Assembly: GCA_000165345.1 (NCBI GenBank)
Contig: CM000432.1
Span: 384,001 to 448,000 of the forward strand
Reading direction: 5' to 3'
Length of the DNA stretch: 64,000 nt
A program made the position numbers. Each line of letters begins with the position of its first letter. The first letter of the stretch is position 1. Of the stretch, positions 20,301-23,300 are shown piece after piece.

Positions 20301-23300
20301 CTTGCATTACTTACTGCAAAAATTGCAAAAGATGAAGATGAAGATGAAGATGAAGCTGATGAGGATGAATTATAAATGAGAAAATAAAATGTTATTGAAG
20401 CTTAATTTCTTTTTTTTTTTTTTGTCGTAACTTCTTTAACCAACATAAATGTTACGAATAATAGGAAGAGTAATAAGTTATCATATAATATCAACTTGAA
20501 GTTATTATACTTTGAAGAGATATAGTGAGATTAAGATACATACATAGAAAAATAGAGTGTGAAAGGCTGAAACGAGAACATGTATTAGGAGAAAAGGCTA
20601 AACTTGATATTTATTTTATCAAATAATATATTTCACCAGTTAATAATTTTTGATAAACTTTAAATAGAAGAAAGGATTTAATTATGTTAATGAAGAGACT
20701 TATTCTATTATGATAACTTATAAATTAGATCTAAAGGTTACGACAAGTTAACCAAATAAAATAAATTATATTAACTAATATTTATGTTCGTTAATATAAA
20801 ATAATAATGGTGAGATTGAATGCTTAAACCTTTAAATTCATTTGCAATCAAATTATTTAAAAAGTTTTAATAAAAGTGTAATTAAGTTTAATTTGGCATT
20901 AAGCCAAACCATTATAAATTTAGAAATACAATTCGAACTACTTTACAGTTTCTTTTTTAAGATAAATTAATTAATTATTAATAATTTCATACATATTTAA
21001 AATAAATAATCTTTTTTGTTTCTTTATTTATTAGAATTTTTTTCTTTTTACTATCTTTTATTACAAATCACAATTTGAATAATAGAAAAATTAATGAAAA
21101 TGACGTCAGTTTTTTACCCGCCACACGTGTGGCGGGTCATAAGTAACAGATTGAATTGAAAATACATGTATAATGTGGGGAAAAAATAAGAAAGAAAAAT
21201 AACATATTTTGTAATAAGGAAAAGAAAGAAAAAATAAGGTAATAAGGGAATATAATTGCGAAGATAAATGTGTATTAATAGATGATAAGTTTGTTATTTG
21301 CAGAGATTAAATAATAAAGAGAAAATAATTTGAGCAGTAATTTAGTGAAGATTAATTGAAAGGACTGAAGATAAATAAGGTTTATTAACCTTTTATTTTT
21401 CTTCCCTTATTCTCTTTCATCTTACGAAATAAAGGTGACAATTTTTTTTTTGATTAATAAAGTGGAATAAAGTATATTAAACGTGAAAACGTATTAAGTA
21501 AAAAATAAGGGATTAAACGACTAATATATAATCAGAAACTTCCAATAATTAAACAAAAAACAGAAAATTAAAAAATTTTTAATAAATAATTAATGAAATG
21601 GAACAAGAAAATACAAAAACTTTGAATACAATCAATAGCACGCCAATTAGAAATGGTAATTTGTCATCAAAGGATGTGAACTTGGAAACACCAAATAAAA
21701 GTTCATCAAGAAGTATTGGCAGTGCAGGTGGAAGTTCATCAGTTAGACGTAGTAGTAGATTATTGAAAAAAAATGATGAAAAATCCGGAGGAACTGGACC
21801 TTTAACTCCTCAACTGGGTGCACCAGGAGGAACACCATATCTGTTGAGATCAAAATCAAGAGAAACATTATCATCAACAGAAGCAAATTTAAGGAAGAAT
21901 GCAATGACCATGCCACCATTGAATTTGAAATCAACCAATGATTTGGAAGGAAGTAGTGAGTTCTATCAGACCAATGTAGAAACAAATAATGAAAATAGTA
22001 ATAAGGTTGGAGATGTATATAATATATATTCGACTCCAAGAAAGAGAGTTAGAGGTACTGAAAATGGCTTCAATAGTAGTAACAATAATAATAATATCAA
22101 TACTGGATTAGATTTGGATAGAGATCCAGGCTCTGAAAGCCAGATAAGAAGCTCATCAAGAAGAAAAGGAAATATAAAGAATACGCCTGTGAGCAAAAGT
22201 AGAAGAGTAATTGATGAAGACTCTGCTGTTAAAGATAGGAAGAGTATATTAAAACAGTACGATCCTGATGGTATTAATACATCAACTATGAATATAAAGA
22301 CCCCTAAATCTCAGAAGAAGGTTCAGTTTGGTACAAAAAATTTGATAATAATAGACGAAAATAAACAAGATTTGAATATTGATAAATTGATTACAGAGAG
22401 TGATAATGATGAAAATGGTAATATTCAAGACAAAAGATTTGCGGATGATCTGACAGTTGATAGAATGAGTATATTAAGTGAGCTTGATGATGCTGGTACT
22501 GGTCAGATATATAATTTCCCATCATTGGAGGAATTGATAAATACAAAAAAGACTGAAAATACTTCAACACAAAAAGTTTATAACAATGATATTGTTGATA
22601 GTGAAATTTCTAATCGATTTGCAACTGTTAATAATATTCATAATTATCATCATCGTGAAAATAACCAAGATAATAAAGCAACCAATCCAAGTGATTTATT
22701 CATCCAAAATGAAAATTCTGGAAAAGATAAATCTATAACTGATCAAGATGGAATTATTGATTGCAATGATCAGAAAAATCTTGATAGTGAGTATATTAAA
22801 ACAAATCGTAATCAAGTTCAAGATGAAAATAATATAGAGAAGAATATTGAATTGACTGATCAGATTAATATATCTGATTATTCAATAAATTGTAGAGATT
22901 CAATAGCTCCAAATTTGCCTGGAGCATTTTTATCAGTAGTTATGCAAAATTTATCTTCTGTAAATTTTCCAGAAGAAAAAAAACCAGAATCAGATGAAGA
23001 TATTAAAATTCCTAAATTAGAATTTAATGATGATAACATTGAAGATACTATAAATAAGAAGAATGATTTAGATCAAGATGTTAGTCTTAAAGAACAGAAA
23101 CCTGATCAAGAACCAACTATGGAAAATCAATCAGTATTTGAAGACAATGAAATTTATATTGAGGCTAAGAAACAGATAAATAAGGAAGACGAAATTATAT
23201 TAGAAGAGAATAAAGAAGATATTCAAAATCAACAAGAACAGGTACAATTTGAATTTGAAAGTGAAAATGTAGAGAATCAAATTCAAGAACAATTGATCAG

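What the first reader, a model, noticed from the sequence alone, without database searches (positions are those of the whole stretch)
21101..21137. Perfect GC-rich palindromic composite element (CRE TGACGTCA plus 22-bp palindrome ACCCGCCACACGTGTGGCGGGT) in an AT-rich promoter
A 22-bp perfect inverted repeat centred on an E-box (CACGTG) and flanked by GGCGGG arms is very unlikely by chance in DNA of this composition. It is immediately preceded by a perfect 8-bp CRE palindrome. It lies about 460 bp upstream of the 1328-aa orphan gene. Looser half-element versions (CACACGT/ACGTG followed by GGCGGGCTTT) recur at 43736..43760, upstream of the myosin, and on the minus strand at 36017..36040, upstream of SmE. 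This suggests a shared transcription-factor site (bHLH/E2F-like or AP2-type dimer) or a hairpin-forming element.
Basis: seen in the sequence. Interest (0 to 1): 0.5.

Follow-up and report, generated by a model that had tools for sequence, protein, structure and literature searches.

The report
Conserved paired E2F-like promoter sites
The GC-rich palindrome is real and is kept in eight Cryptosporidium species, but what is kept is two back-to-back copies of the parasite's already known, very common E2F-like promoter motif in front of a kinetochore gene, not the central E-box.

Summary
The window is Cryptosporidium parvum chromosome 4. The palindrome is far beyond chance (about 5e-7 expected per window).

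Orthologous loci from eight intestinal-clade species show what is conserved:
- The two arms are kept, as CCCGCC-N7/8-GGCGG(G).
- A downstream block, CATGTA..ATGTGGGGAAAA, is kept. It contains a G-box.
- The centre varies (ACACGTGT, ATACGTAT, ATAATTAT, ACATAAAC, ACATGGA, TATATGT), so the E-box is parvum-lineage-specific.
- TGACGTCA is kept in five of the eight species.

GGCGGG is the published E2F-like "motif 4", the most abundant upstream motif in C. parvum and the dominant motif in open chromatin.

The downstream "orphan" is cgd4_1600. It carries invariant KNL1-type SILK and RVxF motifs.

Best reading: a conserved promoter module with two inverted E2F/DP sites, a CRE-like site and a G-box. 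This is a new instance of a known motif kind.

Three things stay open. Three lineages keep different perfect-palindrome spacers. A second inverted pair lies at 5726-5745. A hairpin or cruciform role is not excluded.

The parts
21101..21108 (.). CRE-like palindrome TGACGTCA. A 7-nt spacer (G plus T6) separates it from the 22-bp palindrome, so it lies 8 nt from the CCCGCC core.
   Evidence: Exact in C. parvum, C. meleagridis, chipmunk genotype I, C. canis and an unnamed Logan species. Degenerate in C. felis (GGTGACAT), C. ryanae and C. xiaoi. TGACGT occurs at only two loci in the window, both within 15 bp of a GGCGGG.
21117..21122 (-). Left arm CCCGCC, which reads GGCGGGTAAAAAA on the minus strand. 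E2F-like core with an A/T-rich outer flank.
   Evidence: Invariant in all 8 intestinal-clade species. GGCGGG is the published E2F-like motif 4.
21123..21130 (.). 8-bp spacer ACACGTGT holding the E-box CACGTG (21124-21129). Variable between species.
   Evidence: Spacers: ACACGTGT (parvum, meleagridis, chipmunk), ACATAAAC (canis), ATAATTAT (Logan species), ATACGTAT (felis), ACATGGA (ryanae), TATATGT (xiaoi). Three different spacers are perfect palindromes.
21131..21136 (+). Right arm GGCGGG, E2F-like core.
   Evidence: Invariant in 7 of 8 species. GGCGGT in C. xiaoi.
21142..21151 (+). Conserved block AGTAACAGAT.
   Evidence: Kept in the parvum clade and the Logan species, with one change in canis (AGTAGCAGAT). 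Diverged in felis, ryanae and xiaoi.
21165..21184 (+). Conserved block CATGTAtaATGTGGGGAAAA. It contains a G-box (GTGGGG at 21175-21180).
   Evidence: CATGTA is invariant in the 8-species alignment. GTGGGG is exact in 7 species; the Logan species has GTGGGT. G[T/C]GGGG is a published ApiAP2-binding motif. GYGGGG occurs 12 times in the window against 3.2 expected.
21598..25584 (+). Downstream gene cgd4_1600, a 1328-aa KNL1/Spc7-like kinetochore protein.
   Evidence: Identity with C. parvum proteins. The neighbour cgd4_1590 is the chromodomain helicase. SILK at residue 216 and KKVQF at 240 are invariant in 11 species. No Pfam hit.
43740..43752 (+). GTGGGG-T-GGCGGG(CTTTT), 332 bp upstream of the myosin gene (minus strand). 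A single E2F-like site plus a G-box.
   Evidence: Conserved in C. felis and C. ryanae together with the adjacent TTACCTACGTGTG..CATGT.
36014..36041 (-). TGACGTG-ttttg-GGCGGG-cttt-GTGGGG, about 190 bp upstream of SmE exon 1 (ATG at 35837, minus strand).
   Evidence: In C. felis and C. ryanae only a GCGGG core is kept.
5726..5745 (.). Second inverted pair CCCGCC-TTGATTGA-GCGGGC, in a divergent promoter between a 191-aa ORF and a SART-1-like gene.
   Evidence: Chance expectation for such a pair is about 0.006.

Best explanation
The palindrome is the core of a conserved promoter or regulatory module of the Cryptosporidium KNL1/Spc7-like kinetochore gene cgd4_1600.

Its two arms are inverted copies of the genus's E2F-like motif GGCGGG, held 7-8 bp apart. 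I infer that each arm is bound by an E2F/DP heterodimer. The two may bind co-operatively, or as one symmetric complex. This would tie transcription of a mitotic gene to the replicative asexual stages, when E2F and DP are expressed.

The flanking TGACGTCA is inferred to bind a bZIP-type factor. The downstream G-box is a published ApiAP2-type site. Both would act as co-elements. Transcription probably starts downstream of the G-box.

The central E-box is an accident of the parvum lineage's spacer.

Shown here: the sequence, its improbability, the conservation pattern, and the motif's enrichment in non-coding DNA. Inferred: which proteins bind, co-operativity, and the position of the transcription start.
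For: Organism and gene:
- The window is C. parvum chromosome 4.

The motif is known and common:
- GGCGGG is a published E2F-like motif. E2F-like motifs are over-represented upstream of 2,379 genes in 163 of 200 expression clusters (PMC3734150).
- E2F is the top motif in sporozoite ATAC-seq peaks, followed by a poly-T motif (bioRxiv 10.1101/2025.01.17.633476).
- In this window GGCGGG occurs 9 times against 0.65 expected. Seven of the nine lie in the 31% of the window outside long ORFs.

Conservation:
- Both arms are invariant in 8 species (one base differs in C. xiaoi). The spacer sequence is free, and spacing stays at 7-8 bp.
- Window 21101-21200 is the most conserved non-coding stretch of the 1.2-kb intergenic region: 0.58-0.66 identity against a mean of 0.40.
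- The gastric species C. muris and C. andersoni have a single TTTGGCGG at about -100 instead.

No support for an RNA gene:
- No covariation in the six core pairs and no further helices.
- No Rfam match and no conserved small ORF.

The target gene fits:
- It carries KNL1-type SILK and RVxF motifs.
- It clusters by expression with an EB1-like protein and a tubulin cofactor.
Against: - No E2F/DP binding has been shown experimentally in Cryptosporidium (review PMC12246861).
- The flanks of the arms are only loosely E2F-like: TGTGGCGGGTCA against the consensus TTTGGCGGGAAA.
- The element lies about 460 bp from the ATG, which is far for this compact genome. The transcription start is unknown.
- Three lineages keep different perfect-palindrome spacers, with covariation at pairs 42/47 and 44/45 reached by only 5 of 500 shuffles. 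Two independent E2F sites do not require this.
- Published clusters carrying E2F motifs show no specific expression pattern. The motif alone therefore does not predict cell-cycle control.
Confidence: 0.65

Rival explanations
1. One symmetric dimeric factor recognises the whole inverted repeat CCCGC-N9/10-GCGGG as a single site. It need not be E2F/DP. The element would then be a distinct composite motif, not two ordinary E2F sites.
For: Orientation and spacing are fixed across 8 species. A second inverted pair with nearly the same spacing lies at 5726-5745. No direct or everted pairs lie within 30 bp among 15 GCGGG sites. Chance expectation is about 0.006. Spacer symmetry is kept by paired changes in three lineages.
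Against: Single GGCGGG sites are commoner than pairs in the window. Some single sites are themselves conserved, such as the myosin-upstream one. The spacer is 7 nt in C. ryanae and C. xiaoi and asymmetric in C. canis. No candidate factor is known.
Confidence: 0.13
2. The element works as nucleic-acid structure. It would be a DNA cruciform, or an RNA hairpin at or near the 5' end of the cgd4_1600 transcript or in a long 3' UTR of cgd4_1590. What matters would be the fold, not the motif.
For: - Predicted DNA hairpins of -7.5 to -11.2 kcal/mol in all five spacer types folded; z-scores are -4.2 to -5.4 in four of them.
- Paired changes keep the inner stem: C:G to T:A at pair 42/47.
- A public short-read contig (L003) begins exactly at the first base of the palindrome. 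This fits fold-back during library preparation or a transcript end.
Against: - Twelve arm positions stay identical across species whose flanks are about 40% identical. Not one G:U or compensatory change is seen in the six core pairs. That is the pattern of sequence-specific recognition of duplex DNA.
- The arm sequence is exactly the genome's commonest promoter motif.
- The 'covarying' central pair 44/45 would lie in the loop of any real hairpin.
- C. ryanae's hairpin is not better than shuffles (z = -1.6).
- No terminator-like site and no Rfam family.
Confidence: 0.12
3. One reading: a bHLH-type E-box (CACGTG) with a CREB/ATF site forms the functional core, and the GC arms are only flanks.
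For: CACGTG and TGACGTCA are both perfect in C. parvum. ACGTGT is enriched in the window, 12 against 3.2 expected.
Against: CACGTG is present only in the parvum, meleagridis and chipmunk group. It is replaced in five other species while the arms stay unchanged. No bHLH is listed among C. parvum transcription-factor families.
Confidence: 0.03
4. The perfect symmetry has no function of its own. Two adjacent inverted E2F sites form a quasi-palindrome, and replication template-switching (intrastrand correction) repeatedly makes it perfect.
For: Perfect symmetry extends into the two central bases (CG, CG, AT in three lineages), where neither a hairpin stem nor separate half-sites need it. Symmetry has decayed in C. 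canis, C. ryanae and C. xiaoi without loss of the arms.
Against: Nothing here tests it directly. It explains only why the palindrome is perfect, not why the element is conserved. It is compatible with the best explanation rather than an alternative to it.
Confidence: 0.05

Closest known systems
Cryptosporidium E2F-like upstream motifs: motif 4 (GGCGGG) and motif 3 ([C/G]GCGC[G/C]) of Oberstaller et al. 2013, the same E2F motif found in ATAC-seq peaks by Xiao et al. 2025
   Same: Identical 6-mer core. Located in upstream non-coding DNA, enriched in intergenic DNA of this window, and next to a T-run.
   Different: Here two copies are inverted at a conserved 7-8 bp spacing, forming a perfect 22-bp palindrome in C. 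parvum. I did not find paired sites or spacing rules in the papers read.
Paired inverted E2F sites with a neighbouring ATF/CRE site in the adenovirus E2 early promoter, and overlapping or palindromic E2F sites in the mammalian DHFR and E2F1 promoters.
   Same: Two E2F sites in inverted orientation beside a TGACGT-type site, in a promoter tied to the cell cycle.
   Different: Different organisms and spacing. The co-operativity there depends on a viral protein. No Rb-family pocket protein is known in Cryptosporidium.
G-box G[T/C]GGGG, bound in vitro by the ApiAP2 domains cgd8_810, cgd2_2990 and cgd1_3520 (PMC3734150, PMC4117751)
   Same: GTGGGG follows the palindrome by 38 bp and is kept in the orthologues. 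It also accompanies the GGCGGG sites at 43740 and 36014.
   Different: It is a neighbour of the palindrome, not part of it.
E-box / bHLH site CACGTG
   Same: The hexamer is present in C. parvum.
   Different: It is not conserved at the orthologous site. No bHLH family is listed for the organism.

Membership tests
E2F/DP binding site (Cryptosporidium E2F-like motif family) | Core matching GGCGGG / [C/G]GCG[C/G][C/G] | tested here: met
   Both arms are GGCGGG. The motif definition is in PMC3734150.
E2F/DP binding site (Cryptosporidium E2F-like motif family) | T-rich 5' flank and A-rich 3' flank (TTTGGCGGGAAA) | tested here: inconclusive
   The left arm reads GGCGGGTAAAAAA. In C. felis it is the canonical GGCGGGAAG. 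The inner flanks are T[G/A]T. The right arm is followed by TCAT or CTTTT, not AAA.
E2F/DP binding site (Cryptosporidium E2F-like motif family) | Enriched in upstream or non-coding DNA | tested here: met
   9 hits against 0.65 expected. 7 of 9 lie outside long ORFs, which cover 69% of the window. The genome-wide statement comes from the literature only.
E2F/DP binding site (Cryptosporidium E2F-like motif family) | Conserved at orthologous loci | tested here: met
   Arms are invariant in 8 species, with one base different in C. xiaoi. A single TTTGGCGG is present in C. muris and C. andersoni.
E2F/DP binding site (Cryptosporidium E2F-like motif family) | Bound by E2F/DP proteins | not testable with these tools
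   No binding data exist for Cryptosporidium E2F/DP.
CRE / ATF (bZIP) site | TGACGTCA octamer, conserved | tested here: inconclusive
   Perfect in 5 of 8 species and degenerate in felis, ryanae and xiaoi. Not enriched in the window. One non-CCAAT bZIP is listed for C. parvum. Binding was not tested.
E-box (bHLH) site | CACGTG conserved at the orthologous position | tested here: not met
   Replaced by ATAAAC, TAATTA, TACGTA, CATGGA and other sequences in five species.
Structured RNA gene or RNA hairpin element | Compensatory base-pair changes and a match to a known family or a multi-helix fold | tested here: inconclusive
   Six core pairs never vary. Two inner pairs covary (5 of 500 shuffles reach the observed score). 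RNAalifold finds only the 6-bp stem. No Rfam match down to E = 10.
Paired inverted E2F sites (adenovirus E2 early promoter type) | Two inverted E2F sites at a fixed spacing, with co-operative occupancy | tested here: inconclusive
   Inverted orientation and 7-8 bp spacing are conserved. Co-operativity is not testable here. The comparison itself is from memory.
KNL1/Spc105/Spc7 kinetochore scaffold (the downstream gene) | N-terminal SILK and RVxF PP1-docking motifs; Spc7 domain | tested here: inconclusive
   SILK (216) and KKVQF (240) are invariant in 11 species. UniRef names it Spc7-domain-containing. There is no Pfam or PDB sequence hit.

The most novel reading that the evidence does not exclude
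CCCGC-N9/10-GCGGG is a distinct, recurrent composite element of Cryptosporidium promoters. It would be an inverted E2F-like pair with fixed spacing and selected dyad symmetry, read by a dimer of E2F/DP heterodimers or by a still unknown symmetric factor. It would mark a specific regulon, such as mitotic or kinetochore and RNA-processing genes, rather than being two ordinary sites that happen to be adjacent.
Probability: 0.2. Interest if true: 0.5.

Novelty: new member of a known kind. Interest (0 to 1): 0.3.

Why it matters
Cryptosporidium is the only apicomplexan genus that kept E2F/DP, and E2F-like motifs dominate its promoters. Even so, no E2F site has been validated, and nothing is known about the grammar of these sites.

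This locus offers a sharply defined test case: two invariant arms, a free spacer, a CRE-like site and a G-box, all within 85 bp, in front of a kinetochore gene. It would suit reporter, EMSA or CUT&RUN work.

If the inverted-pair arrangement recurs genome-wide, it would be a first rule of promoter architecture in this parasite. Otherwise the finding is an ordinary, well-conserved instance of a known motif.

Tried and rejected
- **Rfam.** At gathering thresholds over the whole window it found only two tRNA-Pro genes. A permissive scan of 20376-21650 gave only two chance-level hits, with E about 9. An ncRNA gene was therefore rejected.
- **RNAalifold** on 8 species gave no helix beyond the 6-bp stem.
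- **Small-ORF listing** of the intergenic region found nothing longer than 42 aa.
- **The bacterial-type promoter and terminator scan** was uninformative and found no terminator-like site.
- **A metagenome scan** for the composite pattern CCCGCC-N7/8-GGCGGG-N18-32-CATGTAWWATGTGGG gave 0 hits. The collection apparently lacks this locus, so no further species or paralogous copies were gained.
- **Pfam and PDB sequence searches** of cgd4_1600 and its orthologue profile gave nothing. The KNL1 reading rests on the short motifs and the UniRef name.
- **Paper searches** for cgd4_1600 and for the SRA run ids found nothing. Supplements of the ATAC-seq and long-read paper are not held.
- **The literature search for the adenovirus E2 promoter architecture** gave no usable source. 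That comparison is marked as recalled from memory.
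Full report
**1. What the window is**

The 1328-aa ORF at 21598-25584 is identical to a protein encoded on 1.1-Mb chromosomes of two Cryptosporidium parvum assemblies. Public sources name it a C. parvum hypothetical protein or "Spc7 kinetochore protein domain-containing" protein.

Locus tags (CPHLJ_4g1600, cmbei_4001600) point to cgd4_1600 on chromosome 4. So does the supplement of Oberstaller et al. 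2013, which lists the neighbour cgd4_1590 as the chromodomain helicase.

The surroundings are compact, nearly intron-free eukaryotic genes:
- a CHD/SNF2 helicase
- a protein kinase
- Spb1
- a myosin
- NOG1
- a Brr6-like gene
- SmE
- SART-1
- two tRNA-Pro genes

**2.

TGACGTCA is at 21101-21108. ACCCGCCACACGTGTGGCGGGT is at 21116-21137. Its right edge is 461 bp before the ATG, in an intergenic region of 21.6% GC.

- It is the only GC-rich short-loop inverted repeat in the 64 kb. The other long palindromes are AT-only low complexity, or a CAG/CTG run inside the helicase ORF.
- From base composition, 4.9e-7 such palindromes are expected per window.
- The CRE octamer alone would not be remarkable: 14 of 100 shuffles contain one.

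**3. What is conserved**

I fetched the orthologous helicase-to-cgd4_1600 intergenic region from these species:
- C. meleagridis
- Cryptosporidium chipmunk genotype I
- C. canis
- an unnamed species from a public read set (57% protein identity)
- C. felis
- C. ryanae
- C. xiaoi
- C. muris
- C. andersoni

All eight intestinal-clade species, counting C. parvum, carry CCCGCC-N7/8-GGCGG(G). It lies 426-538 bp before the ATG. In C. felis the distance is 762 bp, because the called gene starts later.

The arms are invariant. The one exception is C. xiaoi, whose right arm is GGCGGT.

The spacer is not conserved:

| Species | Spacer |
|---|---|
| C. parvum, C. meleagridis, chipmunk genotype I | ACACGTGT |
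| C. canis | ACATAAAC |
| unnamed species | ATAATTAT |
| C. felis | ATACGTAT |
| C. ryanae | ACATGGA |
| C. xiaoi | TATATGT |

The E-box is therefore a feature of one lineage only.

- TGACGTCA is exact in five species and degenerate in three.
- CATGTA(N2-4)ATGTGGGGAAAA follows the right arm by 25 to about 50 bp in all eight species.
- Window 21101-21200 is the best-conserved non-coding stretch of the region. Identity of four distant species to C. parvum is 0.58-0.66 there, against 0.40 overall.
- The gastric species lack the pair. They have a single TTTGGCGG about 100 bp before the ATG.

**4. What the arms are**

GGCGGG is "motif 4" of Oberstaller et al. 2013, assigned with [C/G]GCGC[G/C] to E2F/DP. 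E2F-like motifs are the most abundant putative sites in C. parvum upstream regions, covering 163 of 200 expression clusters and 2,379 genes.

A 2025 preprint finds E2F to be the dominant motif in sporozoite ATAC-seq peaks, followed by a poly-T motif. Cryptosporidium is the only apicomplexan genus with E2F and DP genes, and none of these sites has been validated.

This window behaves the same way:
- GGCGGG occurs 9 times against 0.65 expected. Seven of the nine lie outside long ORFs.
- Most of those seven lie 190-480 bp upstream of a start codon.
- The palindromic variant TGGCGCCA sits in three further intergenic regions.
- Genes downstream of these sites share no obvious function. They include cgd4_1600, the myosin, SmE, SART-1 and Spb1. 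This matches the published finding that the motif is not tied to one expression pattern.

**5.

Both contain GGCGGGCTTT together with a G-box:
- 43740-43752 reads GTGGGGtGGCGGGcttt.
- 36014-36041 on the minus strand reads TGACGTGttttgGGCGGGctttGTGGGG.

The ACGT-containing piece ends 16, 5 and 1 nt from GGCGGG at the three loci (read). It is therefore not part of one fixed element.

The myosin-upstream site is strongly conserved in C. felis and C. ryanae as CCCGCC-N-CCCCAC-N2/3-TTACCTACGTGTG-N4-CATGT. At the SmE-upstream site only a GCGGG core is kept.

These are single E2F-like sites in composite promoters, not degenerate palindromes.

**6. Structure or sequence?**

Each version can fold as a DNA hairpin, at -7.5 to -11.2 kcal/mol. 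Several results argue against a structural role:
- The six core pairs never vary across species whose flanks have largely diverged. That is what sequence-specific recognition predicts. It is uninformative about structure.
- No other helix, Rfam family, small ORF or terminator-like site is present.

One result does not fit two independent sites. Three lineages have different but perfectly palindromic spacers (ACACGTGT, ATACGTAT, ATAATTAT). This requires paired changes at positions 2/7 and 4/5. The covariation score is reached by only 5 of 500 shuffles.

Part of this could arise if each half-site independently prefers T[G/A]T before GGCGGG. That cannot explain the central pair, which would sit in the loop of any real hairpin. 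The remaining explanations are a symmetric protein complex or template-switch correction of a quasi-palindrome. I cannot separate them.

A public short-read contig starts exactly at the first base of the palindrome. This is the break expected from fold-back chimeric reads. It shows only that the sequence folds in vitro.

**7. A second pair**

Among the 15 GCGGG pentamers in the window, the only pairs within 30 bp are two inverted ones. They are this element (spacer 10 between pentamers) and CCCGCC-TTGATTGA-GCGGGC at 5726-5745 (spacer 9). The second lies in a divergent promoter next to a SART-1-like gene.

About 0.006 such pairs are expected by chance. This hints that the inverted arrangement recurs. 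I could not test its conservation or count it genome-wide.

**8. The gene**

cgd4_1600 is not an orphan. It has orthologues in every sampled Cryptosporidium species.

It gives no Pfam or PDB sequence hit. Its N-terminal region does carry invariant SILK (216) and KKVQF (240) motifs. From general knowledge, that pair of PP1-docking motifs is characteristic of KNL1/Spc105/Spc7.

In the 2013 expression clustering it sits with an EB1-like protein and a tubulin-folding cofactor. An E2F-driven kinetochore gene is biologically ordinary.

**9. Verdict**

The most likely mechanism is a conserved promoter module in which two inverted E2F/DP sites, a CRE-like site and a G-box drive a KNL1-like gene (confidence 0.65). 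The identity of the binding proteins is inferred, not shown.

It is a new, unusually clean instance of a known motif kind. The conserved spacing, the maintained dyad symmetry and the second pair leave a modest chance (about 0.2) that inverted pairs are a composite element in their own right.

Noticed in passing
window 5726-5745: A second inverted GC-core pair, CCCGCC-TTGATTGA-GCGGGC. It lies in the divergent promoter between a 191-aa ORF (4535-5110, minus strand) and a SART-1-like gene (6135-7262, plus strand), with a CCCCC run and TTACCT just upstream. About 0.006 such pairs are expected by chance.
   Followed up: partly
window 43716-43752; L013 12325-12365; L014 12482-12522: The myosin-upstream region carries a composite conserved in C. 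parvum, C. felis and C. ryanae: CCCGCC-N-CCCCAC-N2/3-TTACCTACGTGTG-N4-CATGT. It lies 330-400 bp before the myosin ATG.
   Followed up: partly
L003 1-22 (Logan contig SRR5007564_822): A public short-read contig begins exactly at the first base of the 22-bp palindrome. This is the break expected from fold-back chimeric reads at a palindrome, or a transcript end if the run is RNA-seq. The type of run could not be established.
   Followed up: partly
window 21598-25584 (residues 216-244): The so-called orphan (cgd4_1600) has invariant SILK and KKVQF motifs in 11 Cryptosporidium species, the KNL1-type PP1-docking pair. Pfam and PDB sequence searches find nothing.
   Followed up: yes
window, 12 sites (e.g. 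3629, 28214, 36034, 43725, 51226): ACGTGT occurs 12 times against 3.2 expected (1 of 100 shuffles reaches this). Several copies are in intergenic DNA, and three lie next to GGCGGG sites. It may be a further promoter motif.
   Followed up: no
window 12914, 37453, 38655: The palindromic E2F-type octamer TGGCGCCA sits in three intergenic regions. One is upstream of the CHD/SNF2 helicase, close to a GCGGGG and a GTGGGG.
   Followed up: no
window 14043-14062: A 20-bp perfect GC-rich palindrome, GCAGCAGCAGCTGCTGCTGC, lies inside the helicase ORF. It is a CAG run abutting a CTG run.
   Followed up: no
window 13563-20375: The CHD/SNF2 helicase gene is markedly more GC-rich (35-39%) than the rest of the window (about 20-30%).
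   Followed up: no
window 375-474 and single positions near 32544, 32771, 60592-60604, 61047: There is a 100-N gap and scattered single Ns. The window therefore comes from an older, gapped assembly, not the telomere-to-telomere one.
   Followed up: no
window 3545-3617 (-) and 4166-4238 (+): A divergent pair of tRNA-Pro genes (AGG and TGG anticodons) about 550 bp apart.
   Followed up: no
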